From: Pseudomonadota bacterium
Lineage (GTDB): Bacteria; UBA10199; 2-02-FULL-44-16; JAAZCA01
Direction of reading: 5' to 3'
Length of the DNA stretch: 54,717 bases
Assembly: GCA_016927275.1 (NCBI GenBank)
Contig: JAFGMW010000064.1
Location: 1-54,717 of the forward strand
Below the pieces are notes generated by a model. The model was not told the origin of the DNA. It saw nothing but the letters and a program-made list of their open reading frames with translations, and ran no database searches. Both the position numbers and the translations under genes were made by a program. This document shows positions 3,590 to 54,717 of the stretch, in pieces (positions within the stretch are counted from its first letter, which is position 1; each line of letters begins with the position of its first letter).

Positions 3590-5233
3590 CTACTGCCTTG
3601 CGCGTATCTCGTCAATCGCCGAGTTCGCCTTTGCGACCACCTGTTCGCTCTTTCCCATGGAGGCCAGCTCGAGCAGCCTGCGGCCGCTATCGGGGCCCCC
3701 GTATCTCCTCAGTATGTCTATGCCCGCAATGACGATCGAGTCGTCCGCCTCGGACATTATGAGCTGCGAGGCCAGCGAGGCCGCCTCGGCGGGGGAGACC
3801 TCACCCATCCTTCTCAGCGCCTCGACCCGCGCCTGCCTGTCCTCGGAGGCGAGGGCCACGGTCTTGAGGAGCCGCAAGACCGGCTCCGCGAAGCGCTCGC
3901 CCTGGAAGCGGCCCACGACCGAGACGATCTCGCGCGCCAGCGCCGCGTCCGGCTCCCTCTGCATGAGTGAGAGCAGGGTGTCGAATGCGCGGTCGCCGCC
4001 CACGCGGCCGATCGAGCGGATCGCGTGGATCTTCTTCAGAGGCTTCATGACCCCGTAGCGCTGCGCGAGCAGGTCGACCGCCGCGTCGCCGCCGCGGGCG
4101 ATGAGCGGCTGCATCATCTGCGGCAGGTGCTCGGCCTGCGTGGACTCGAATACGCGCGCAAAGAGCGCTACCTCGGCGGCGTGGGCGTCGGCATAGCCCC
4201 TGGCGAGCTCGTCGACCGCTGCCTGGTGGACCGCGCGCGGATGGCTTGCGTCCCGAAGGACCGCTATGAGGATGTCGCGCGCCAGCCGCGAGTTGTCCGC
4301 GCCCAGCCCCGCCACGGCCGCGACCCTCATCTCAGGGGCGCTCTCCGGGGCCGAGAGGATGCGGCCGAACTCTAGGGCCGTCTCCTCGGTACCCTTTCTG
4401 CCGAGCGCGCGGGCGGCCTCAGTGCGCAGCTGCGGGTCGGACTCAAGCACGTCGTACAGCATGGGGATCGCGCCGTCGGCTTCGATGGCGCCGAGCGCGG
4501 CCACCGCCTCGCGCCTGGCCTCGGGGTCGCCGGAAGATCTCAGCACCGAGCCGATCTCGGAGAGCGCATCCTCGCCGCCGAGCGCGCCCAGCACCGAGAC
4601 GGCGCCCCTCTTGTAGCCCGCGCCTGCATCTGCGCCCCGCGCGTCCTGTGCGGCGCTTGCCCTCACCGCCTCGCGCGCTGCGCGGTCCTTGAGGGCCTCG
4701 CCCCTTGCGAGAGCGTCCCTGGCCTCGTCTGAGAGCTTCGCGTCGCCGCCCACCGCGTGCCGATAGAGCGCCTGCGCTGCCCTCTCGCCCTTGAACGAGG
4801 CGAGCGCGCGGACGAGCGCCTGCCGCTGCTGCGCGGGCCTCGCCTCATCCAGCATTCGAATTACGGTATCCAGCGCGATCGGCCCCATGCGGGAGAGGTC
4901 GGAGCCGAGATCCGCGATCTCATCGCGGTCCTTTGCGGGATCGAGCGACAGAATCACGCCGAGGGTCGTGTCAACGGCGCCGCGAACGACGCGCTCCTCA
5001 TCGTGGGCTTCCTGCGCCGCTTCCTCCTCGAGCGCCTCCTCTTCACGGGAGTCGAGCCTCGCCTCCAGGTCCGAGACGAAGCGGCGTGCCGCGGCGGAGT
5101 AGGATCTCCGGGCCTGCAAGGTCGATTCGGCGCCGGCCGGCGAGCCTGCCTCGGCCCCTGTCCCGGGCGCGCCTGTGCAGGATGTGAGGACGAGTGCGAG
5201 CGACGCAAACAGCGTGACCAACTGGGAGTTCAT
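3590..5233 (-). CDS. HEAT/PBS-lyase-repeat lipoprotein
   Basis: Lipobox LVLTS-C; repeated R.EAV.ALG.I / LR.EAARALG helical-hairpin units. Confidence 0.75.
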   Translation of the reverse strand: MNSQLVTLFASLALVLTSCTGAPGTGAEAGSPAGAESTLQARRSYSAAARRFVSDLEARLDSREEEALEEEAAQEAHDEERVVRGAVDTTLGVILSLDPAKDRDEIADLGSDLSRMGPIALDTVIRMLDEARPAQQRQALVRALASFKGERAAQALYRHAVGGDAKLSDEARDALARGEALKDRAAREAVRASAAQDARGADAGAGYKRGAVSVLGALGGEDALSEIGSVLRSSGDPEARREAVAALGAIEADGAIPMLYDVLESDPQLRTEAARALGRKGTEETALEFGRILSAPESAPEMRVAAVAGLGADNSRLARDILIAVLRDASHPRAVHQAAVDELARGYADAHAAEVALFARVFESTQAEHLPQMMQPLIARGGDAAVDLLAQRYGVMKPLKKIHAIRSIGRVGGDRAFDTLLSLMQREPDAALAREIVSVVGRFQGERFAEPVLRLLKTVALASEDRQARVEALRRMGEVSPAEAASLASQLIMSEADDSIVIAGIDILRRYGGPDSGRRLLELASMGKSEQVVAKANSAIDEIRARQ

Positions 5234-5428
5234 GACCGCCCCCTGGTGTTATATATATGAAATGAGCTTATCATCATCGCCCGGAACATGGAAGAACAGT
5301 CTGAAAAGATGCCACATGTTCAAGGCCTTCTCAATTGCTTTGATAACTATGTAAAAAAATAATGATAATAAATAGGGGCCGCAACGGACCCTGCGGCAGC
5401 AGGGGTATCAAAAGCGACACGTCCTTAT

Positions 5429-5902
5429 TCAGCGGTGGTGCGCGGTCGAATCGGGCTCGTCGTACAGCTGCTCGTAGGTGCGGCCCCTGCCGGCGGGGCG
5501 GCGTTCTTCCTTGGGCGGCCCCTCTCCGGGGCACCTTTTGCACAGAAGCCTCTTCCTCATGAGGCGGAGGAGGAAGGCGGCGAGCTTGAAGCCGATGTAG
5601 GCGGCGAGCAGGGCCAAAAAGACGTCCCTCGGGTCGGACTTTATGTTGGCCGAGGCCCTGTCTACGGCCGCCGCGACCCCGCCTTTCAGCCCCGCCACGA
5701 ACTCGTCGAAGGGGGCGTCGAGGGCGTAGGCCCTGCCGAAGGCGTAGATCACGCGGAAGTTGTAGAGCATGCCGCGCCACGCGCGCGCGCCTATCTCCCC
5801 GGCGAACATCATGGAGAAGATCGCGGCGAGCAGGGCGAACTCGGAGAATATCTTCTCCGCCGCGAACACGACGGACTTCACGGACAACCTCATCATCTTC
5901 AT
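5429..5902 (-). CDS. Hypothetical membrane protein
   Basis: AGGGAGGG SD before MKMMRLS; two hydrophobic segments; 10 nt downstream of the RND stop. Confidence 0.6.
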   Translation of the reverse strand: MKMMRLSVKSVVFAAEKIFSEFALLAAIFSMMFAGEIGARAWRGMLYNFRVIYAFGRAYALDAPFDEFVAGLKGGVAAAVDRASANIKSDPRDVFLALLAAYIGFKLAAFLLRLMRKRLLCKRCPGEGPPKEERRPAGRGRTYEQLYDEPDSTAHHR

Positions 5903-5912
5903 CGATCCCTCC

Positions 5913-8900
5913 CTAGTCCTCTGCCTGCAGTTCCCCTGTGCCCGCTGCGCGACGGGCACGGCGCGCCCTCACCCATGCGTAAGCGGCACAGGACCATCTC
6001 CAGCCGGCCCTGCCCCAGTCTCGCATCTGCCTTGCGGCGAGAGCGACGTCGGCCCCGGACAGTCCCCTCTCGGCGAGCCCCTGGACCACCACGTATATCA
6101 CCGGCACGATGCCGAGGGTGAGCACGGTCGAGGCGATCACCCCGCCGAACACCGCGGTGCCCAGCGAGTGGCGCGAGGCGGCGCCGGCGCCCGCGGCGAG
6201 CACCAGCGGTATGAAGCCGAAGATCGCGGAGAGCGCGGTCATGAGGATGGGCCTCAGCCTCACGCGTGCCGCCTCGACCGCCGCCTCCACGATCGTGGCG
6301 CCCGCATCGCGCTTGTCCTTGGCGAACTCGATGAGCAGGATCGAGTTCTTGCTGGCGAGCCCGACCAGCATCACCAGGCCTATCTGGCAGTATATGTCGT
6401 TGTACAGGCCGCGCCAGAACTGGGCCCCCAGCGCCCCGAGTATGGCCAGCGGCACCGCCATCATGATCACCAGCGGCAGGGCCCAGCTCTCGTACTGGGC
6501 CGCGAGGAAGAGGAAGACGAAGGCGATGGAGAGCGCGAAGATGAGAGGGGCCAGCCCCGCGGACTTTATCTCCTGCAGCGCCGTTCCTGTCCACTCGAAG
6601 CCGTAGCCGGCCGGGAGGATCCTCTTTGCCAGCCGCTCCATCGCCGCTATCGCCTCGCCGGAGCTGTGTCCGGGCGCCGGCGCCCCGTTGAGCTCGACGC
6701 TGCGGTAGAGGTTGTAGCGCGTGATCGTCTGCGGCCCGGTGATCCTCCTCACGCCGACCAGCGCCGACAGGGGCACGAGATCGCCCGAGGCGGAGCGGAC
6801 GTAGAGCCTGGAGATGTCGCCCACGTCGGCGCGGAAGCGGTCCTTGGCCTGGACGAAGACGCGGTAGACCCTGCCGAACTTGTTGAAGTCGTTCACGTAG
6901 AACGAGCCGAGGTAGGCCTGCAGGGTGTTGAATATGTCGGTGATCGCGATGCCCAGGGTTTTGGCCTTGGTGCGGTCGAGGTCGATGTAGAGCTGCGGGT
7001 AGTCGACCTTGAAGGTCTTGGAGAGGTGCGCGAGCGCCGGGTCATGCCTGGACGCTCCGATCATCTTCTTCGAAAGGTCGTCGAGGGCGCGGATGTCGCC
7101 GCCGCCCCTGTCCTGCAGCTCGAACTGGAAGCCGCCGGTGGTGGAGAGCCCCTCTATCGGGGGCGGGTTGAATGTGAAGGCGAGCATCTCCTCGAGGCCG
7201 AAGAGGTCCATCTGGACCCTCTCCATGACCGCCTCGACGCTCGATCCGGCGCCCCTGCGCTCAGACCACTCCTTGAGCGTCACGATGAAGGTCGTGGCGC
7301 TCGAGTCGAGGGCGCCGTTTATCATGTTGTAGCCCGCGATCGTGAGGACGTCCTCGACCTCTCCCCGGGACCTGACCATCCCCTCTATCCTGTCGCTCGT
7401 CGCCATGGAGCGCGAAAGGGACATGCCCTCCGGCCCCTGCGCTATGATGTAGAAGTAGCCCATGTCCTCGTCGGGCACGAAGGCGGTCGGCACATGCCCG
7501 GCAAGGAACCATGTGATGCCCATCAGCGCGAGGAAGAGGACCAGCACCGCCTTCCACCTGCCGACCAGGCGGCCGACCAGCGTCTGGTACAGGCCGCTGG
7601 AGAGGCCGAACCCCTTGTTGAAGCCGGTGAAGAGAGGGCCCTGCTTCGCGGGCTTGGGCCTGAGCACGATCGCGCAGAGGGCGGGCGCGATGGTGAGCGC
7701 GCAGACCGTGGAGATGCCGACCGCGAACGCGATGGTGAGCGCGAACTGCCTGTAGAGCTGCCCCGATATGCCGGGCATGAAGGCCACCGGCACGAAGACC
7801 GCGAAGAGCACGAGGGTCGTGGCGATGACCGGCCCCACCACCTCGGCCATGCCCTTCATGGCCGCGTCGAGCCCGCGGAGACCCTCCTGCTCGATGAGCC
7901 GCGAGGTGTTCTCCACGACGACGATCGCGTCGTCGACCACCGTGCCTATGGCGAGCACGAGCCCGAAGAGGGTGAGGGTGTTGATCGAGAAGCCGAACGC
8001 CATCATGACGCCGAAGGTGCCGATGAGCGAGACCGGTATGGTGATCGAGGGGATCAGCGTCGACCGCCAGTCCTGAAGGAACACGTAGATCACCGCGATC
8101 ACCAGCAGCACCGCGAGCACGAGCGTGATCACGACCTCCTTGATCGACTCCTTCACGAACATCGTGGTGTCGTAGGGGATCGAGTAGGCGAGCCCCTCGG
8201 GGAAGCGCGCGGAGAGCTCCTCCAGCGTCTGCCTCGCCTGGCGCGATATCGCCACGGCGTTGGCGCCGGCGAGCTGGAACACGCCTATGCCCGCGCAGCT
8301 CTTGCCGTTGAGCTCGAACGACCATTGGTAGTTCTCCGCACCGAGCTCGACGTCGGCCACGTCGCGGATCCTCACGACCGATCCGTCCGCTGCGGTCCGC
8401 ACGACGATGTCCCTGAACTCCTCCACATCCTCGAGGCGGCCCTTCGTGGTTATCGTGTACTGGAACGCGACGCTGTCGGAGCTGGGAGGCTGGCCCAGCC
8501 CGCCCGCGGCCACCTGCACGTTCTGGTCCTGGATCGCCCCCACCACGTCCTGCACCGCGAGGCCCATCCCGGTGAGCCGGTCCGGGTCGAGCCAGAAGCG
8601 CATGGAGTAGGCCCGCTCGCCGAATATGATCACGTCGCCCACGCCCGGGATTCGCTTGAGCACGTCCACCACGTTGATGGAGGCGTAGTTGGAGAGGAAC
8701 AGCTCGTCGTAGCGGTTGTCGGTCGCAAAGAGGGTGGCGATGAGGATGAAGTTGCTGGACTTCTTCTGCGTGGTGACGCCGTACTTGCGCACGTCCTCCG
8801 GGACGCGGGGGAGCGCGATGTTGACGCGGTTCTGCACGTCCACCGCGGCGATGTCCTGGTCGTAGCCCACCTCGAACGTGACCGTGATGTTCGAGGAGCC

Positions 8901-49882: not shown

Positions 49883-50301
49883 AGAATATCAAAAGAATAC
49901 TGTTTCTCTGCACCGGGAACGCCTGCCGCAGCCAGATGGCCGAGGGCTGGGCGCGGCGCCTCTTCGGCGATTCGGTCGAGCCGTATTCGGCGGGGATAGT
50001 TGCTGCAGGGCTCGACCCGCGCGCCGTCAAGGTCATGGCCGAGGCGGGCATGGACATCTCGGGACATCGTTCGAAGACGCTCGATGAGCTCGGAGATATT
50101 TCGTTTGACCTCGTCGTCACTCTCTGCGACCGGGCGCGCGAGTCCTGTCCGGTCTTTCCTGGAGGCGTAAAAAAAATACACCGCTCTTTCGACGATCCCC
50201 CGACGTTTGCCCAAGGCGCGCAGGGCGAGGAGGAGGCGTTGTCGCATTACCGCCGGGTGCGGGACGAGATCAGGGCGTTCTTACAGGGGTTCAAAGTTTG
50301 A
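49879..50301 (+). CDS. arsC: Arsenate reductase (thioredoxin-coupled, LMW-PTP fold)
   Basis: LFLCTGNACRSQMAEG, VTLCD…CPVFP, FDDP, RRVRDEI. Confidence 0.9.
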   Translation: MKNIKRILFLCTGNACRSQMAEGWARRLFGDSVEPYSAGIVAAGLDPRAVKVMAEAGMDISGHRSKTLDELGDISFDLVVTLCDRARESCPVFPGGVKKIHRSFDDPPTFAQGAQGEEEALSHYRRVRDEIRAFLQGFKV

Positions 50302-50410: not shown

Positions 50411-50932
50411 ATGAACATCTCCGCCAGGCATGCATTCGTTGCATTGATCGGATCGGTATTCGTGTTTGCGCTTACCGGATGTTTCTCCAGCAGCGGCGGC
50501 GGCGGGGTTGTATACGATCCCACCTGGATCAACGCCTCGTGGTCAGGCGGCGCCAAGGGCGATCCCACCGACCGCACGGACATAGAGGCGGAGAATTGGA
50601 AGGGGGACATATGCCCCGCGTCTTCGCTCGCCATAACTAACCACAGCGGCGGATTTGCAGGGCTCTGCTTTGTGAACAACTGCACCATCATGATGAACCT
50701 CAATATCTGCCGGACAAAAGGGACGCCCGCTCAGCCCGATTTGGGGCTGCAGAACTACGAATGCGCCACCGATCCCCTGGAGACCCCTTCTTCGAGGCTG
50801 TACATCGTGCCCCTGAACCCCGGCGCGGACGGCTTCTGCATAAACGCCACCGAAGACATCTCCATCAACGTCTTCTATTGCAGCGACGAGCAGATGCTCG
50901 ATCTGCTCTCCTCTCCCTTAAGCTGCATCTGA
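50411..50932 (+). CDS. Cys-rich lipoprotein, unknown function
   Basis: Lipobox ALTG-C; eight further Cys. Confidence 0.7.
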   Translation: MNISARHAFVALIGSVFVFALTGCFSSSGGGGVVYDPTWINASWSGGAKGDPTDRTDIEAENWKGDICPASSLAITNHSGGFAGLCFVNNCTIMMNLNICRTKGTPAQPDLGLQNYECATDPLETPSSRLYIVPLNPGADGFCINATEDISINVFYCSDEQMLDLLSSPLSCI

Positions 50933-51114
50933 TGTCAGCGGCCCTTCGGCGCTGAAGGCGCCCAGCAAAGACTCCGCGCGCCGCTTTCAGCGCAAAAGAG
51001 GTGTCGTCGTCCGGTCCGGAGCCCGGACGTTTGTCTGGTGCCGGAATTCGTTTGAGTTATATCCGGCGATGCACTATCGGGTGCCGGTGGCATGACCGCA
51101 AGGATCGAAAGGAT

Positions 51115-52734
51115 ATGGAAGAGACCCGGACCATAAGGGAGATAGAGCGCCGAAAGACCTTCGCCATCATCTCCCACCCCGACGCCGGCAAGACCACGGT
51201 GACCGAGAAGCTCCTGCTCTTCGGCAACGCCATCCAGATGGCCGGGACCGTCAAGGCGAGGAGGGCGGAGCAGTTCGCCACGTCCGACTGGATGGAGATC
51301 GAGAAGCAGCGCGGCATCTCGGTCACCTCCTCGGTCATGCAGTTCTCCTACGCGGGCCGCGAGATCAACCTGCTGGACACGCCGGGGCACGCCGACTTCA
51401 GCGAGGACACCTACCGCGTGCTGACCGCGGTCGACAGCGCGCTCATGGTCATAGACTCGGCGAAGGGCATCGAGAGCCAGACCAGGAAGCTCTTTCAGGT
51501 CTGCCGCGACCGCCGCATGCCGATCATGACCCTCATGAACAAGATGGACCGCGAGGGGCGCGATCCGTTCGAGCTCATCGACGAGCTGGAAAGCCTCCTC
51601 CACCTCAGGTGCGCGGTGATGACCTGGCCCATCGGCCAGGGGCGCGATTTCAAGGGGGTCTACGATCTCGTCCACGGCCGCATAAGGCTCTTCATGCCCG
51701 GCATGAAGCTGCGCGTCGACGACGAGGCGATCGAGTGCATAGACGAGCTGGAGAGCCCGAGGCTGGCGGAGGCCGTGGGGGAGGGGCACATCGCGAAGCT
51801 CAGGGAGGATCTGGAGCTGATCGAAGGGGCCGGCCACGGATTCGACCGCGAGGGCTACATGTCCGGGAGGCTCTCGCCCGTATTCTTCGGCTCGGCGATA
51901 AATAACTTCGGCATCCGGGAGCTCCTCGACGCATTTACAGAGTTCGCGCCATCCCCCCTGCCGCGCCCGGCCGAGGAGAGGACGGTCGATCCGCACGAGA
52001 CCGCCTTCACCGGGCTCGTGTTCAAGATACAGGCCAACATGGATCCCAGGCACCGCGACCGCGTGGCGTTCCTCAGGATATGCTCGGGCGAATTCGTGCA
52101 GGGGATGAGCGCCTATCACGTCCGCTCGGCGAGGGAGTTCCGGATAAAGAACGCGCTCCAGTTCATGTCGCAGAGGCGCAGCAACGTCGACCGCGCCTAC
52201 GCCGGGGACATCATAGGCATCCACGACCGCGGGACCCTGATGATAGGCGACTCGATAACGGCCGGCGAGAGGCTCACCTTCACCGGCATACCGCGTTTCT
52301 CCCCCGACCGCTTCAGCCTCGTCACGCTCAAGAATCCGATCAAGGTCAAGCAGCTCAACAAGGGGCTCGAGCAGCTCGCCGAGGAGGGGAGCTCCCAGCT
52401 CTTCCGTCGCAGGCACAACTCCGACACGATCATCGGGGTGGTGGGGCAGCTCCAGTTCGAGGTGGTGAAGTTCAGGCTGCTCCACGAGTACGGCGCCGAG
52501 GCCCTCTTTCACCCGATGCCCTACACCTACTCGCGCTGGTACCGGTCCGCAAACAGGAAGAAGCAGGAGGAGTTCGAGAGCTACTACCGCGCGCACATCG
52601 TCCACGACGTTAGGGACTATCCGATGATGCTCTTCAAGAACGAGTGGGAGCTGGGCTACATACAGGAAAAACACCCCGACATATCTTTCCACTCGAGCCT
52701 CATGAACTACGAGCAGGACGCGGCGGAGGCGTGA
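51115..52734 (+). CDS. prfC: Peptide chain release factor 3
   Basis: RKTFAIISHPDAGKTT, SDWMEIEKQRGISVTSS, LLDTPGH.DFSEDTYR, FKIQANMDP.HRDR. Confidence 0.97.
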   Translation: MEETRTIREIERRKTFAIISHPDAGKTTVTEKLLLFGNAIQMAGTVKARRAEQFATSDWMEIEKQRGISVTSSVMQFSYAGREINLLDTPGHADFSEDTYRVLTAVDSALMVIDSAKGIESQTRKLFQVCRDRRMPIMTLMNKMDREGRDPFELIDELESLLHLRCAVMTWPIGQGRDFKGVYDLVHGRIRLFMPGMKLRVDDEAIECIDELESPRLAEAVGEGHIAKLREDLELIEGAGHGFDREGYMSGRLSPVFFGSAINNFGIRELLDAFTEFAPSPLPRPAEERTVDPHETAFTGLVFKIQANMDPRHRDRVAFLRICSGEFVQGMSAYHVRSAREFRIKNALQFMSQRRSNVDRAYAGDIIGIHDRGTLMIGDSITAGERLTFTGIPRFSPDRFSLVTLKNPIKVKQLNKGLEQLAEEGSSQLFRRRHNSDTIIGVVGQLQFEVVKFRLLHEYGAEALFHPMPYTYSRWYRSANRKKQEEFESYYRAHIVHDVRDYPMMLFKNEWELGYIQEKHPDISFHSSLMNYEQDAAEA

Positions 52735-52864: not shown

Positions 52865-52891
52865 TGGGCCCAAAATTGGGCCCAAGATTGG
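52865..52891 (+). repeat. 12-bp tandem direct repeat containing the TGGGCCCA palindrome
   Basis: TGGGCCCAAAAT-TGGGCCCAAGAT-TGG at the boundary of the AT-richer insert. Confidence 0.7.
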
Positions 52892-52906
52892 CATCACGCT
52901 GGGAAA

Positions 52907-53374
52907 CTATAAATCGCCTGTGCGTATCAGGACGGAGCCGTCAGGTTCCAACCGATCCGTGAGATACTTGCGGCGAGCCTCGTGCTCTATGCTCTCGCGA
53001 TTAGCTCTGAATATCTTGAGCGGGTCCTTGTCGCCGCCGCCGAAATGATCTTCAATCGCCTCCTGGCTGACGGCGCACTGTACGATCTTTTCCCCGTCCT
53101 TGCCCCAAAACGCCACGACATCGCGATCGAAATCATATCTCTCCTTCGGCTCGGGGAATATGAGATGTCGATCGTCTATCATGCCCAGCACGGTGAGGAT
53201 GTTTATGACGGACGAGAGCTGCAAGTCCCTCTCGCCGCCCTCAAATCGGGAGACGGTCGGGGTGCTCACTCCGGCCAGGTCTGCCAGCCTTTTCTGGGTC
53301 AGCTTTTGCGCCTTGCGCCTCTGCCTCGCCTCTTCGACCAAAGCTCCCCAGTTAATTTGAAACTGCCGTTCCAT
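52907..53374 (-). CDS. XRE/HipB-like HTH protein fused to a DUF1488-like domain (putative antitoxin)
   Basis: RRKAQKLTQKRLADLAGVSTPTVSRFEGG HTH; C half VAFWGKDGEKIVQCAVSQEAIEDHF…FRANRESIE..A resembles DUF1488; GGAG SD inside hipA. Confidence 0.75.
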   Translation of the reverse strand: MERQFQINWGALVEEARQRRKAQKLTQKRLADLAGVSTPTVSRFEGGERDLQLSSVINILTVLGMIDDRHLIFPEPKERYDFDRDVVAFWGKDGEKIVQCAVSQEAIEDHFGGGDKDPLKIFRANRESIEHEARRKYLTDRLEPDGSVLIRTGDL

Positions 53375-54534
53375 CTCTTCTCCATTCTGTTTATCAATTC
53401 ATCGCGCAAACGTTTGGGGCCGACGTCCGATTTTGATACCTCCTCCTGTGCGGCGGGCAGGCGTTCACCGATCGTCTCCACCGCGGCGACGATGGCATCG
53501 ATCCTGACTCCAAAACCCCTGCCCATCTCCAGCAGGTGTTTCGATTTGAGCTTGCCGATGGCCAGGTTTTCGATGCCGGCCACGGAAAGGGCGATGGACT
53601 GGTACTCCTTGTAGAGCGCCGAGGCGACCAGGTCGTAGGATGGCGTCAGGCGAAGCCCGTCTCGCGTATGGAACATCGCGAAGTTTTTGAAGTGCGCATC
53701 CGTATTTCCCACGAGCAGCGCTGCCAGTATGCGCCGCAACAGGCGATCCGCCTCGGCGGGGATGCAGCCGGGTGTGTCCAGTATGAACCTTCCCATGTCT
53801 TCGTAGGCGCCCTCGTATTTTTCATCTCCCGAATGTCTGCCCAGCAGTTGATTGAACTCCTCGAAATGAATCCGCTTGGCCGTAGGAGTTCGATCGAAGC
53901 GCGGGATGATAATAGCCTGCTCCTTTATGGATGGGATGGTGACGATCTCCATGTCCACGACATCATCCCCCGGCAGGAGCTTGCGGACGGCCCGGGTGGT
54001 CAGATATTCGAGTTCGATTATATCGGCCAGATTGCCGGAGGGAAGTTTTGCGATATGCGTGCTCAGCTCTCCGGGCCCGACCGGGCGATAGTTTCTTCCA
54101 TCGGGGACTACAAGGAGCTTTCGCTGTATGCCGGAGAGGGACGCCCTTCCGAGCAGGGCCGCCAGTGTGGCCTCGTCGGTATGATCGAGGGTCTTATGTT
54201 CCTGCGCTTCAGGGTCGATGATGGAGACGGCGCCCGCGAGATCGAATCCGAAACCGAGGAGAAGCGCGAAGCGGTTGTTCGGGTTTACGCCTAGCGCCCT
54301 TGCCTGGGCACTCCTCAGCCACCCTTCGGCGACCAGGTTGTCGAAGAAGGGGGGCAGTCCGCTCTCAGAGACGTGCGGCTCGGGCCCAAGCGGAAGGGTA
54401 TGAGCGATCGCCGGCTGATCACCCTCGAGATAGGAGGCGTCGTAGGTGAACGCCACCCTGCCGCCGGGCTCCTCCTGAAGCCTTCCGGCGTAGATATCCC
54501 TGAAGTAGATCTTGCCCCATAGCGTCTTTGCCAT
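53299..54534 (-). CDS. hipA: HipA-family Ser/Thr kinase toxin with fused N-terminal (couple_hipA/HipS-like) domain
   Basis: N-terminal AGRL…FTYDASYL…LPPFFDNLVAEGW; Gly-loop SLSGIQRK; GNTDAHFKNF; LTPSYDL. Confidence 0.9.
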   Translation of the reverse strand: MAKTLWGKIYFRDIYAGRLQEEPGGRVAFTYDASYLEGDQPAIAHTLPLGPEPHVSESGLPPFFDNLVAEGWLRSAQARALGVNPNNRFALLLGFGFDLAGAVSIIDPEAQEHKTLDHTDEATLAALLGRASLSGIQRKLLVVPDGRNYRPVGPGELSTHIAKLPSGNLADIIELEYLTTRAVRKLLPGDDVVDMEIVTIPSIKEQAIIIPRFDRTPTAKRIHFEEFNQLLGRHSGDEKYEGAYEDMGRFILDTPGCIPAEADRLLRRILAALLVGNTDAHFKNFAMFHTRDGLRLTPSYDLVASALYKEYQSIALSVAGIENLAIGKLKSKHLLEMGRGFGVRIDAIVAAVETIGERLPAAQEEVSKSDVGPKRLRDELINRMEKRWNGSFKLTGELWSKRRGRGARRKS

Positions 54535-54541
54535 AAAACAT

Positions 54542-54570
54542 ACTTTATATTAGTCCAGTAATAAAGTCTA
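54542..54570 (-). promoter_or_regulatory. Sigma70-like promoter with overlapping inverted repeat (putative leaderless hipA transcript)
   Basis: Minus strand TAGACT-N17-TAAAGT with the ATG 7 nt after the -10 and no SD; ACTTTAT-N12-ATAAAGT (54542-54567) overlaps both boxes. Confidence 0.55.
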
Positions 54571-54717
54571 CATATAAAATATATTTAATGTTCAATAAAT
54601 AATAGATACGAATATAAAGAATATTTACTGACCTTCCCCCTGGAAATCGGTCCAGTTGAAACCTGAAAGAGTCTGGGCTAGAAGCTCCCGAGCAGGGGGG
54701 GGGGGGGGGGGGGCAAA

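What the first reader, a model, noticed from the sequence alone, without database searches (positions are those of the whole stretch)
52907..54534. Toxin-first HipA module whose partner is an HTH-DUF1488-like fusion
Seen: hipA with intact kinase motifs (SLSGIQRK, DAHFKN, PSYD) precedes its partner, the reverse of hipBA, and overlaps it by 76 nt. The 155-aa partner has an XRE HTH plus an extra about 85-aa domain. Established: HipB is an HTH-only antitoxin encoded upstream of hipA, and variant hip gene orders exist. Inference: the extra domain may be the neutralising module or a sensor (e.g. of phage proteins), making this a candidate uncharacterised TA or defence system. I cannot confirm from sequence alone that it is undescribed.
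Basis: partly seen in the sequence, partly recalled or inferred. Interest (0 to 1): 0.7.

Follow-up and report, generated by a model that had tools for sequence, protein, structure and literature searches.

The report
Toxin-first HipA kinase with HipB-DUF1488 partner
This is a real, widespread but uncharacterised variant of the HipA/HipB toxin-antitoxin pair in which the kinase gene comes first and its DNA-binding partner carries an extra domain of unknown function (DUF1488); the gene order is already known, the extra domain on a HipA partner appears not to have been described.

Summary
On the minus strand, a 411-aa HipA kinase gene (53299-54534; Couple_hipA and HipA_C domains, all catalytic motifs intact) overlaps by 76 nt a 155-aa partner gene (52907-53374). 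The partner is an XRE/HipB-like HTH fused to a full-length DUF1488 domain (Pfam E 9e-18; model matches PDB 2GPI, TM 0.80).

The pair is a conserved, self-contained cassette:
- Seventy species-representative genomes carry the same toxin-first order, with a 70-91 nt overlap in the same frame.
- In a HipA-based metagenome scan, 75 of 75 full-length HipA genes had the overlapping HTH partner, 71 with DUF1488.
- No third gene is conserved and the flanks are unrelated.
- Three 20-bp palindromes (ATATAAAATATATTTTATAT), 40-41 bp apart, precede hipA; the last overlaps its ATG.
- hipA lacks a Shine-Dalgarno sequence, while the partner has GGAG inside hipA.

Most likely this is a type II toxin-antitoxin operon, with the HTH acting as autorepressor and antitoxin. 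HTH-only partners paired with intact HipA argue that DUF1488 is an accessory domain, not the sole neutraliser.

A defence role is unsupported: no real PADLOC hit, no phage copies, mostly housekeeping neighbours. Reversed hip order is published (Gerdes 2021). No paper found links DUF1488 to HipA. Verdict: new variant of a known kind.

The parts
53299..54534 (-). hipA-family Ser/Thr kinase gene, the putative toxin (411 aa). Couple_hipA domain at residues 8-105 (54220-54513); HipA_C at residues 132-326 (53557-54141). Gly-rich loop S132-LSGIQRK139, K163, D279-AHFKN284, D301.
   Evidence: aligns to S. oneidensis HipA 4PU3/4PU5 over residues 2-366, E 1.7e-18. Searches show the motifs invariant across orthologues.
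52907..53374 (-). Partner gene (155 aa): HipB-like XRE HTH fused to DUF1488; the putative antitoxin and autorepressor.
   Evidence: AF2 model with pLDDT 90.9; fold matches.
53183..53326 (-). HTH_3 domain of the partner (residues 17-64). The whole N-terminal module is residues 1-68 (53171-53374).
   Evidence: TIGR03070 couple_hipB at 53.7 bits, below its cut-off; Foldseek to S. oneidensis HipB 4PU7, 39% identity, rmsd 1.7.
52928..53164 (-). DUF1488 domain of the partner (residues 71-149).
   Evidence: Pfam PF07369 E 8.6e-18; profile hit to 2GPI; Foldseek 2GPI with TM (target) 0.80, rmsd 1.5 A over 83 columns.
53299..53374 (-). 76-nt dual-coding overlap: the HipA C-terminal tail (residues 387-411) in one frame and partner residues 1-25 in another.
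   Evidence: The overlap is conserved at 70, 76 or 91 nt with the same frame offset in 71 of 71 loci and in the metagenome loci.
53380..53383 (-). GGAG Shine-Dalgarno sequence for the partner, 5 nt before its ATG, embedded in the conserved HipA codons M-E-K-R-W.
   Evidence: an SD core is present in 65 of 70 loci for the partner; absent in 64 of 70 for hipA.
54533..54552 (-). Operator-like palindrome O3 (TAATATAAAGTATGTTTTAT), overlapping the hipA start codon.
   Evidence: PWM score 18.9; the position at -18 is shared by 56 loci.
54572..54591 (-). Operator-like palindrome O2 (ACATTAAATATATTTTATAT), 40 bp upstream of O3. In many loci its left half coincides with the best -10-like hexamer.
   Evidence: PWM score 23.7.
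54612..54631 (-). Operator-like palindrome O1 (TCAGTAAATATTCTTTATAT); the weakest copy in the window.
   Evidence: PWM score 12.2; positions -96 to -101 are shared by 57 sites.
52902..54631 (-). Extent of the mobile cassette: operators, hipA and partner.
   Evidence: Nucleotide homology to L001 (89%) covers only 52902-54595, and to L003 52913-54626. A variant contig in run X2 diverges at 52902.

Best explanation
This is a self-contained, horizontally mobile type II toxin-antitoxin-like operon of the HipA/HipB kind, in toxin-first order.

Inferred steps:
1. One promoter, embedded in an array of three 20-bp palindromic operators, drives hipA and then its partner.
2. The partner's HipB-like HTH, presumably as a dimer, binds the operators and represses the operon. 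O2 overlaps the likely -10 and O3 covers the hipA start codon.
3. The same HTH module, with the segment just after it, binds and inactivates HipA, as canonical HipB does.
4. Antitoxin excess despite the reversed order comes from translation. hipA has no Shine-Dalgarno sequence and its ATG sits inside an operator, whereas the partner has a GGAG inside the end of hipA and starts 76 nt before the hipA stop.
5. Free HipA would arrest growth by phosphorylating a translation factor, by analogy an aminoacyl-tRNA synthetase, and would be limited by autophosphorylation at S132.
6. The DUF1488 domain is an accessory module on the antitoxin. It may set its stability, oligomeric state or response to a signal, or add a second contact to HipA. 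It is not the sole neutralising element.

Shown here: the gene anatomy, the domains, the motif integrity, the operator array, the Shine-Dalgarno asymmetry, the strict co-occurrence of the two genes, and the cassette boundaries.

Not shown: toxicity, neutralisation, DNA binding, the kinase target and the role of DUF1488.
For: Domains and motifs:
- Pfam and NCBIfam domain hits.
- The catalytic residues are invariant in the 24-sequence HipA alignment (71-orthologue profile).
- The nearest solved structures are S. oneidensis HipA and HipB.

Co-occurrence:
- In a partner-based scan, 70 species-representative loci have a full HipA immediately upstream, overlapping by 70, 76 or 91 nt in a fixed frame.
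- In a HipA-based scan, 75 of 75 full-length HipA genes have the HTH partner and none lacks it.

Autonomy and mobility:
- No conserved third gene; at most 6 of 71 loci share any neighbour.
- Homology to the closest locus ends at the cassette edges.
- HipA, HTH and DUF1488 co-diverge (r about 0.8).

Regulation:
- Three operator-like palindromes at -18, -58 and -99, spaced 40-41 bp, in nearly all loci. Background is 0.08 sites per 203 nt.
- For comparison, the S. oneidensis hip operon has four evenly spaced operators (PMC4150777).
- Shine-Dalgarno asymmetry.

Decay pattern:
- hipA is broken beside an intact partner in L013, L040, L041 and L070.

DUF1488 as accessory:
- HTH-only partners of 72-81 aa occur with an intact HipA in L076-L080, L136 and L156. 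L076 sits inside the DUF1488 clade: its HipA is 75% identical to that of L015.
- The conserved DUF1488 residues are shared with a stand-alone 85-aa DUF1488 protein from Ralstonia, 48% identical.
Against: - There is no experimental evidence of toxicity, neutralisation or DNA binding for any member.
- No RNA evidence was found: a metatranscriptome from the same study gave no contigs on the module.
- No consensus sigma-70 promoter was found in the window itself. The family-wide promoter placement is only a plurality call in AT-rich sequence.
- The argument from broken hipA beside intact partners comes from loci retrieved through the partner's HTH, so it is ascertainment-biased. Some frameshifts may be MAG assembly errors.
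- HTH-only variants show that DUF1488 is dispensable for keeping hipA intact. They do not show that it is uninvolved in neutralisation where it is present.
- The partner scores below the curated cut-offs of both NCBIfam HipB-type models.
Confidence: 0.7

Rival explanations
1. DUF1488 is the principal HipA-binding, neutralising domain, like the C-terminal toxin-binding domains of most type II antitoxins, and the HTH serves only for operator binding and dimerisation.
For: - Most type II antitoxins separate DNA binding from toxin binding (general knowledge).
- In S. oneidensis the segment C-terminal to the HipB HTH is captured in a HipA pocket (PMC4150777).
- DUF1488 is under purifying selection and co-diverges with HipA (r 0.79).
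- It is retained in 71 of 75 HipA-ascertained loci.
Against: - HTH-only partners coexist with an intact HipA in at least seven loci in at least two lineages, with no DUF1488 remnant.
- Canonical HipB neutralises HipA through the HTH dimer itself.
- The most conserved DUF1488 residues (CxxSxEALxDHF, IExxARxK) are also present in a stand-alone DUF1488 protein that has no HipA neighbour.
- DUF1488 diverges faster than the HTH: 48% against 67% mean pairwise identity.
Confidence: 0.2
2. The module is an abortive-infection anti-phage system. DUF1488 senses a phage product or an infection cue and releases HipA, which shuts down translation. This is compatible with the toxin-antitoxin reading and adds a biological role to it.
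For: - A HipA-family kinase pair (DS-6) was validated as a defence system, with kinase activity required (bioRxiv 10.1101/2025.01.08.631726).
- Some nearest neighbours hit defence models, including MADS, JetD, AbiEii, PbeA, type IV restriction enzymes and several PDC candidates.
- The C-terminal part of partners with this HTH type is variable: absent, DUF1488, or unknown domains of about 110-280 aa. This resembles sensor swapping.
Against: - Neither protein has a meaningful PADLOC hit; the best is 2e-4 over about 40 residues.
- Most nearest-neighbour ORFs are housekeeping genes, such as an adenylosuccinate synthetase, a gyrase/topoisomerase IV subunit, a penicillin-binding transpeptidase and ABC transporters. 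In the window the neighbour is prfC.
- No copy was found in phage records or viral contigs.
- No DUF1488-like fold was found among viral predicted structures.
- There is no experimental evidence.
Confidence: 0.15
3. It is not a toxin-antitoxin pair but a signalling pair. The HipA-like kinase phosphorylates or otherwise controls the HTH-DUF1488 regulator, which governs genes beyond its own operon.
For: - Not all HipA homologues are proven toxins; monocistronic YjjJ/HipH exists (PMC8262856).
- The target and toxicity of this kinase are unknown.
Against: - Operator-like sites are concentrated at the module's own promoter, with a low background elsewhere in the loci.
- The cassette moves between unrelated genomic contexts with no conserved neighbours.
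- The broken-hipA and intact-partner pattern and the strict toxin-to-partner linkage are typical of addiction modules.
Confidence: 0.08

Closest known systems
Canonical hipBA (E. coli K-12; Shewanella oneidensis MR-1, PDB 4PU3/4PU4/4PU7)
   Same: - HipA kinase with the Couple_hipA N-subdomain, HipA_C, the Gly-rich loop serine, and the DxHxKN and YD motifs.
- An XRE-type HTH partner.
- Several evenly spaced palindromic operators upstream of the operon.
- S. oneidensis HipA and HipB are the best solved-structure matches.
   Different: - Gene order is reversed.
- The overlap is 76 nt, against 1 bp (E. coli) or a 3-bp gap (S. oneidensis).
- The partner carries a folded DUF1488 domain where HipB has a short flexible tail.
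- The operator sequence is ATATAAA-N6-TTTATAT rather than TATCC-N8-GGATA or GTGTA-N6-TACAC.
- HipA is only distantly related (phmmer E 1.7e-18 to the nearest solved structure, S. oneidensis HipA; E 1e-9 to 2e-8 for E. coli HipA entries).
Reversed-order hipAB subclades and the hipEB family (Gerdes, Baerentsen and Brodersen 2021, mBio, PMC8262856)
   Same: - The toxin gene is first, followed by an HTH 'HipB'.
- Reversal is reported to have arisen several times.
- These cases are rare in that data set: 8 hipAB and 12 hipEB among 1,239 kinases.
   Different: - The main text describes these partners only as HTH proteins and does not mention DUF1488.
- Whether this family lies among those 20 modules could not be checked, because the stored Table S1 is cut before those rows.
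- The family here is far larger: at least 438 partner clusters and more than 537 metagenome HipA loci.
HipB or HipR partners with extra domains (HTH+PAS; Stl-like HipR of hipRF/hipRG) in PMC8262856
   Same: An HTH antitoxin or regulator carries an additional C-terminal domain that may receive signals.
   Different: The domain is different (DUF1488), and so are the kinase clade and gene order. HipR is encoded upstream of kinases that lack or vary the N-subdomain.
hipBST tripartite systems (E. coli O127, Legionella pneumophila)
   Same: A HipA-family kinase with an HTH HipB. The Couple_hipA-like element is important for control. Structural matches include HipB(Lp) 8EZT and HipS/HipT chains.
   Different: Here the N-subdomain is still part of HipA and there is no separate HipS gene. 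The system has two genes, not three.
DS-6 defence system (HipA-like kinase plus DUF3037/DUF1829 protein; DefensePredictor preprint)
   Same: A HipA-family kinase is paired with a non-canonical partner, and the kinase activity is needed for its function.
   Different: That partner has no HTH or HipB similarity and carries different DUF domains. An anti-phage function has not been shown for the present family.
Stand-alone DUF1488 proteins (Shew_3726, PDB 2GPI; E. coli YrdB; B. cenocepacia BCAM0277)
   Same: The fold and family signature are the same. A Ralstonia stand-alone protein is 48% identical to the C-domain.
   Different: These are proteins of about 85 aa with no HTH and no HipA neighbour. 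Their function is unknown (PMC2954204, PMC4006907, PMC6127331).
Other toxin-first type II systems (higBA, mqsRA, hicAB); named from general knowledge, not tested here
   Same: The toxin gene precedes an HTH antitoxin, and extra mechanisms are needed to keep the antitoxin in excess.
   Different: The toxin families are unrelated (RNases, not kinases). Here the proposed solution is the Shine-Dalgarno asymmetry plus an operator over the toxin start codon.

Membership tests
HipA Ser/Thr kinase toxin family | HipA_C catalytic domain above the Pfam gathering score | tested here: met
   128.4 bits against a cut-off of 30.5, E 3.9e-37.
HipA Ser/Thr kinase toxin family | N-terminal Couple_hipA subdomain (full-length HipA, not HipT-like) | tested here: met
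   PF13657 at 77.2 bits and TIGR03071 at 68 bits, both above their cut-offs.
HipA Ser/Thr kinase toxin family | Core motifs: Gly-rich loop with the autophosphorylation serine, ATP lysine, catalytic DxHxKN, Mg-binding D | tested here: met
   S132, G135, Q137, K139, K163, D279, H281, K283, N284 and D301 are invariant in the 24-sequence alignment (71-orthologue profile). They align to the S. oneidensis HipA motifs.
HipA Ser/Thr kinase toxin family | Kinase activity, growth arrest, phosphorylation of an aminoacyl-tRNA synthetase | not testable with these tools
   Requires expression, phosphoproteomics and in vitro kinase assays.
HipB antitoxin / autorepressor | XRE-type HTH domain resembling HipB | tested here: met
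   HTH_3 E 7.8e-10; Foldseek to S. oneidensis HipB 4PU7 at 39% identity, rmsd 1.7 A.
HipB antitoxin / autorepressor | Reaches the curated score of the NCBIfam HipB-type models (TIGR03070 y4mF family; NF007271 HipB) | tested here: not met
   53.7 bits against 71.65, and 18.7 bits against 79. It is a relative, not a member of those curated families.
HipB antitoxin / autorepressor | Encoded immediately upstream of hipA | tested here: not met
   It is encoded downstream, starting 76 nt inside hipA; this is conserved.
HipB antitoxin / autorepressor | Array of palindromic operators in the operon promoter | tested here: met
   Three sites (four in Vampirovibrio) at 40-41 bp spacing; sequence-level evidence only.
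HipB antitoxin / autorepressor | Binds and neutralises HipA; binds the operators | not testable with these tools
   Requires rescue assays, pull-down or ITC, and EMSA.
DUF1488 (PF07369) | Full-length match above the gathering score | tested here: met
   64.6 bits against 22, profile positions 1-81 of 82.
DUF1488 (PF07369) | 2GPI-type alpha+beta fold | tested here: met
   AF2 model with pLDDT 90.9. 2GPI is the top Foldseek hit: TM (target) 0.80, rmsd 1.5 A.
Type II toxin-antitoxin module | Two adjacent co-oriented genes forming an autonomous unit in variable genomic contexts | tested here: met
   No conserved third gene. Homology stops at the cassette edges. Nearest neighbours are heterogeneous.
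Type II toxin-antitoxin module | The toxin gene is never found without its antitoxin gene | tested here: met
   75 of 75 full-length HipA genes in a HipA-ascertained sample have the HTH partner.
Type II toxin-antitoxin module | Toxicity of the toxin alone, rescued by the antitoxin | not testable with these tools
   This is the decisive experiment; not done.
Reversed-order hipAB / hipEB of Gerdes et al. 2021 | Toxin-first order with an HTH partner | tested here: met
Reversed-order hipAB / hipEB of Gerdes et al. 2021 | Kinase falls in clade V/VI, VII (hipAB) or IX (HipE) of the published Hip Tree | not testable with these tools
   The copy of Table S1 available here is truncated and holds no hipAB or hipEB rows.
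Known anti-phage defence systems (PADLOC-DB 2.0) | Significant match to a defence-system protein model | tested here: not met
   Only weak local hits: PDC-M03A at E 2e-4 over about 40 residues, and generic HTH models.
Known anti-phage defence systems (PADLOC-DB 2.0) | Enrichment in defence islands | tested here: inconclusive
   A minority of 123 nearest-neighbour ORFs hit defence models, while most are housekeeping. There was no proper background model, and ORF picking was crude.

The most novel reading that the evidence does not exclude
The toxin-first HipA clade may use a constant HipB-type HTH chassis with interchangeable C-terminal domains: none, DUF1488, an unannotated domain of about 270 aa on Ensifer and Sinorhizobium megaplasmids, and possibly others. 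On this reading the C-terminal domains act as signal- or trigger-sensing modules that decide when HipA is released. DUF1488 would then be a ligand- or protein-sensing switch. That would give the first function to a family that includes E. coli YrdB, and would make this a programmable kinase-based stress or immunity switch.
Probability: 0.25. Interest if true: 0.7.

Novelty: new variant of a known kind. Interest (0 to 1): 0.5.

Why it matters
- It defines a large, coherent and so far unstudied branch of the HipA toxin-antitoxin superfamily. The partner falls into at least 438 clusters, HipA relatives occur at more than 537 metagenome loci, and about 80 species representatives carry it across Gamma-, Alpha- and Deltaproteobacteria, Legionellales, Rickettsiales, Elusimicrobia, Opitutales and Melainabacteria.
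- It gives the first functional context for DUF1488, a structurally unique domain of unknown function that is also present in E. coli as YrdB.
- It offers a sequence-level answer to how a toxin-first kinase operon can keep its antitoxin in excess: no Shine-Dalgarno sequence and an operator over the toxin's ATG, against a strong Shine-Dalgarno sequence for the partner inside the toxin gene.
- Natural HTH-only variants provide a ready-made comparison for dissecting what the extra domain does.
- Automatic annotation names the partner 'DUF1488 family protein' or truncates it because of the 76-nt overlap, so these modules are probably missed by toxin-antitoxin surveys.

Tried and rejected
- **Published Hip Tree.** I looked for this family in the tables of Gerdes et al. 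2021. The stored Table S1 is cut within the hipBA rows and holds no hipAB or hipEB rows, none of the family motifs SGIQRK, DAHFKN or MERQF, and no 'DUF' term. The bioRxiv version has no stored supplements.
- **PADLOC.** No real hit for either protein.
- **Phage and virus searches.** Phage records, IMG/VR viral contigs and viral predicted structures contain no copy of the module and no DUF1488-like fold.
- **Plasmids.** No full HTH-DUF1488 fusion. This search did turn up the Ensifer/Sinorhizobium sister architecture.
- **Third gene.** A search for a conserved third gene, such as a HipS-like one, found none.
- **Promoter and terminator scans.** Nothing was found in the window. A family-wide best-promoter scan gave only a plurality position.
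- **RNA evidence.** The one metatranscriptome from the same study has no contigs on the module.
- **Literature.** Searches for a DUF1488, 2GPI or YrdB function, and for a HipA-DUF1488 link, found none.
- **Complex prediction.** A HipA-partner complex model was considered and not run. The tool folds single chains, returns no coordinates or inter-chain confidence, and refuses sequences that are not from the window or the homologue search, so no interface could have been read.
- **Third homologue search.** A search with HipA was not run, because family membership was already unambiguous.
- **Passive-overlap idea.** I considered whether the long overlap is only a passive result of a lost hipA stop codon. 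This is partly plausible: the HipA tail after residue 395 is poorly conserved and its stop position varies between 70, 76 and 91 nt. The start of the overlap, with the Shine-Dalgarno sequence and ATG inside the conserved M-E-K-R-W codons, is nonetheless strictly conserved.
Full report
**Observation**

The two minus-strand ORFs are exactly as described: 53299-54534 (411 aa) and 52907-53374 (155 aa), sharing 76 nt.

- The first ORF matches Couple_hipA (residues 8-105, E 1.4e-21) and HipA_C (residues 132-326, E 3.9e-37).
- It carries SLSGIQRK at 132-139, DAHFKN at 279-284 and PSYD at 298-301.
- It aligns over residues 2-366 to Shewanella oneidensis HipA (4PU3/4PU5, E 1.7e-18), with the Gly-rich loop serine, the catalytic DxHxKN and the Mg-binding YD motif in register.
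- The second ORF matches HTH_3 (residues 17-64, E 7.8e-10) and DUF1488 over the whole profile (residues 71-149, 64.6 bits against a cut-off of 22, E 8.6e-18).
- An AlphaFold2 model built on 112 homologues is confident (pLDDT 90.9).
- Its C-domain superposes on the only solved DUF1488 structure, 2GPI (TM 0.80, rmsd 1.5 A). Its N-domain superposes on S. oneidensis HipB (39% identity, rmsd 1.7 A).
- The 155-aa start, and with it the 76-nt overlap, is the real one. The listed homologues are mostly 153-157 aa, and the aligned ones begin with MERQFxINW. A GGAG sits 5 nt before the ATG.

**How common and how fixed is the arrangement?**

The partner has at least 438 homologous clusters at 90% identity. 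Those listed are nearly all 153-157 aa HTH+DUF1488 proteins, named by their sources 'DUF1488 family protein' or 'XRE transcriptional regulator'.

Partner-based scan of one genome per species:
- It gave 80 loci, mostly MAGs of Gamma-, Alpha- and Deltaproteobacteria, Legionellales, Rickettsiales, Elusimicrobia, Opitutales and Melainabacteria, plus one cultured isolate, Vineibacter terrae.
- In 70 of them a full HipA (52-89% identical) lies directly upstream on the same strand.
- The overlap with the partner is 70, 76 or 91 nt in almost all cases, always with the same frame offset.
- The exceptions are contig ends or decayed copies.

HipA-based scan of metagenome contigs, run because the first scan was ascertained through the partner:
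- More than 537 relatives were found.
- Among the best 80, 75 have a full-length HipA and all 75 have the overlapping HTH partner.
- Of those, 71 partners carry DUF1488, 2 run off the contig and 2 are HTH-only. None lacks a partner.

**An autonomous cassette**

- No third gene is conserved within 3.5 kb; the best-shared neighbour occurs in 6 of 71 loci.
- Nearest-neighbour ORFs are heterogeneous and mostly housekeeping. In the window the neighbour is prfC.
- Nucleotide similarity to the closest locus (89%) spans only 52902-54595, from 5 nt past the partner's stop codon to the upstream operators. The flanks are unrelated.
- A variant contig from another sediment sample diverges at the same position, 52902.
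- HipA, HTH and DUF1488 co-diverge (pairwise-identity correlations 0.69-0.82). Mean pairwise identities are 60%, 67% and 48% respectively.

**Regulatory anatomy**

- The AT-rich 100 bp before hipA holds three copies of a 20-bp palindrome with family consensus ATATAAAATATATTTTATAT.
- In the window they lie at 54612-54631, 54572-54591 and 54533-54552.
- Across 69 loci the sites sit at about -99, -58 and -18 from the hipA ATG, spaced 40-41 bp. The background is 0.08 sites per 203 nt elsewhere in the loci.
- The proximal site includes the first two bases of the start codon.
- In a plurality of loci a TTGAC/TTGC hexamer follows O1 and the best -10 falls in the left half of O2. No consensus promoter is found in the window itself, so promoter placement is tentative.
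- hipA has no Shine-Dalgarno core in 64 of 70 loci. The partner has one (mostly GGAG) in 65 of 70, encoded by the conserved HipA residues M-E-K-R-W.
- Multiple evenly spaced operators are also a feature of the S. oneidensis hip operon (PMC4150777).

**Most likely mechanism**

Taken together this is a type II toxin-antitoxin-like operon of the HipA/HipB kind in reversed order. The following steps are inferred:
1. The HTH partner represses the operon through O1-O3.
2. It neutralises HipA as HipB does.
3. It is kept in excess by translational asymmetry rather than by gene order.
4. Free HipA would arrest growth by phosphorylating a translation factor, by analogy with GltX, TrpS or LysS for characterised HipA and HipT kinases (PMC8262856).

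Two observations are consistent with addiction logic:
- Several genomes keep an intact partner beside a broken hipA: L013 and L041 are frameshifted, L040 retains only residues 300-411, and L070 has an internal deletion.
- No full-length HipA lacks a partner.

The second is not biased in that way.

**What does DUF1488 do?**

Two observations argue against it being the sole neutralising module.
- *HTH-only partners exist.* Partners of 72-81 aa with the same MERQF...STPT(V/L)SRFE N-terminal region occur with an intact, motif-complete HipA and no DUF1488 remnant.
  - They are found in four Vampirovibrio/Melainabacteria records, in one gammaproteobacterial MAG whose HipA is 75% identical to that of L015, a locus with the DUF1488-type partner, and in two metagenome contigs.
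  - The Vampirovibrio loci keep the same operator motif and spacing.
- *The signature is not HipA-specific.* The most conserved DUF1488 residues (CxxSxEALxDHF and IExxARxK) are shared with a stand-alone 85-aa DUF1488 protein from a Ralstonia megaplasmid, 48% identical and with no HipA nearby. They are therefore probably family-wide.

Stand-alone DUF1488 proteins, including E. coli YrdB and B. cenocepacia BCAM0277, have no known function.

I conclude, by inference, that DUF1488 is an accessory module. It might tune antitoxin stability, oligomerisation or signal response, or add a second contact with HipA where canonical HipB has a flexible C-terminal tail. The alternative, that it is the main HipA-binding domain, remains possible at about 0.2.

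**Defence**

Neither protein has a meaningful PADLOC hit. The module is absent from phage records and viral contigs, and no viral predicted structure shows the DUF1488 fold. A minority of nearest neighbours hit defence models (MADS, JetD, AbiEii, PbeA, type IV restriction enzymes and PDC candidates), but most do not. A validated HipA-like defence pair exists (DS-6) with an unrelated partner. A defence role is therefore possible but unsupported.

**Relation to what is known**

- Reversed hip gene orders (hipAB subclades and hipEB) were reported by Gerdes et al. 2021 as 20 of 1,239 modules, with partners described as HTH proteins.
- HipB proteins with extra domains (PAS, Stl-like) are also listed there.
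- No paper in the searched library connects DUF1488 with HipA.
- That paper's Table S1 is only partly stored, so I cannot exclude that some of its 20 reversed modules belong to this family.
- The partner falls below the curated cut-offs of NCBIfam's HipB-type models. It is a relative of HipB, not a member of those curated families.

Verdict: a new variant of a known kind, real, widespread and uncharacterised.

**Wider pattern, partly followed up**

- On Ensifer and Sinorhizobium megaplasmids a HipA 35% identical to the window's is overlapped by 34 nt by a 337-aa partner. That partner has a homologous HTH plus about 270 residues with no Pfam match.
- A search of 1.84 billion representative proteins with the HTH part alone found N-terminally aligned hits in several length classes: 67-89 aa, 150-166 aa, 174-290 aa, 316-351 aa and over 1,000 aa.
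- Of ten of these hits tested against Pfam, only one (174 aa, DUF1488) had a Pfam match outside the HTH.
- This suggests a constant HTH chassis with swappable C-terminal domains. HipA linkage was verified only for the Ensifer type.

Noticed in passing
window 52907-53374; database proteins P0001, P0121 and others: Gene callers often truncate the partner because of the long overlap with hipA. Calls of 144, 131-135 or 91 aa start at internal codons such as Met65, so many database 'DUF1488-only' proteins are really this HTH fusion. Full-length copies are named just 'DUF1488 family protein'.
   Followed up: partly
L081 1856-3984 (Ensifer adhaerens plasmid NZ_CP083351.1); also Sinorhizobium meliloti pSymA-type plasmids: A sister toxin-first module. 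Its HipA (382 aa, 35% identical to the window's) is overlapped by 34 nt by a 337-aa 'transcriptional regulator'. That protein has a homologous N-terminal HTH and about 270 residues with no Pfam match. IS30 and ISNCY transposases lie next door.
   Followed up: partly
L076; L077-L080 (Vampirovibrio / Melainabacteria); L136; L156: HTH-only partners (72-81 aa) in the same toxin-first, overlapping arrangement with an intact HipA. The Vampirovibrio loci have four operator copies instead of three.
   Followed up: yes
L041 (Vineibacter terrae CC-CFT640, NZ_VDUZ01000089.1) about 4809-6042: In the only cultured isolate recovered, hipA appears frameshifted near residues 72-83 while the partner is intact. 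This is either a decayed toxin or a sequencing error.
   Followed up: partly
window 54690-54717: The window ends in a run of about 20 G followed by CAAA. The independent Logan contig of the same sample stops at 54703. This is probably a sequencing or assembly artefact at a contig end, so nothing is known upstream of O1.
   Followed up: partly
window 52866-52883: A GC-rich hairpin, GGGCCCAAAATTGGGCCC, lies between the convergent prfC and the partner gene, just outside the cassette boundary at 52902. The 116-nt region folds at -42.2 kcal/mol (z -2.2). There is no T-run, so it is not a classical intrinsic terminator.
   Followed up: partly
window 51001-52734 (+), 50411-50932 (+), about 49900-50301 (+): The neighbours of the module are ordinary genes: peptide chain release factor 3 (prfC), a small ORF with a lipoprotein-like signal sequence, and a low-molecular-weight phosphatase / ArsC-like ORF. 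These were assigned from their translations, not by HMM. The module's GC content (about 55-61%) is slightly below that of prfC just downstream (about 63-66%).
   Followed up: no
L082 2971-3228 (Ralstonia solanacearum MolK2 megaplasmid): A stand-alone 85-aa DUF1488 protein, 48% identical to the partner's C-domain, lies next to IS-like genes. It shows that the fused domain has close free-standing relatives.
   Followed up: partly
L083 11876-13691: In one metagenome locus the module lies within 4 kb of an AAA_15/AAA_21 ATPase plus DUF4276 gene pair and an IS200-type (Y1) transposase. This is a possible defence or mobile neighbourhood in that genome only.
   Followed up: no
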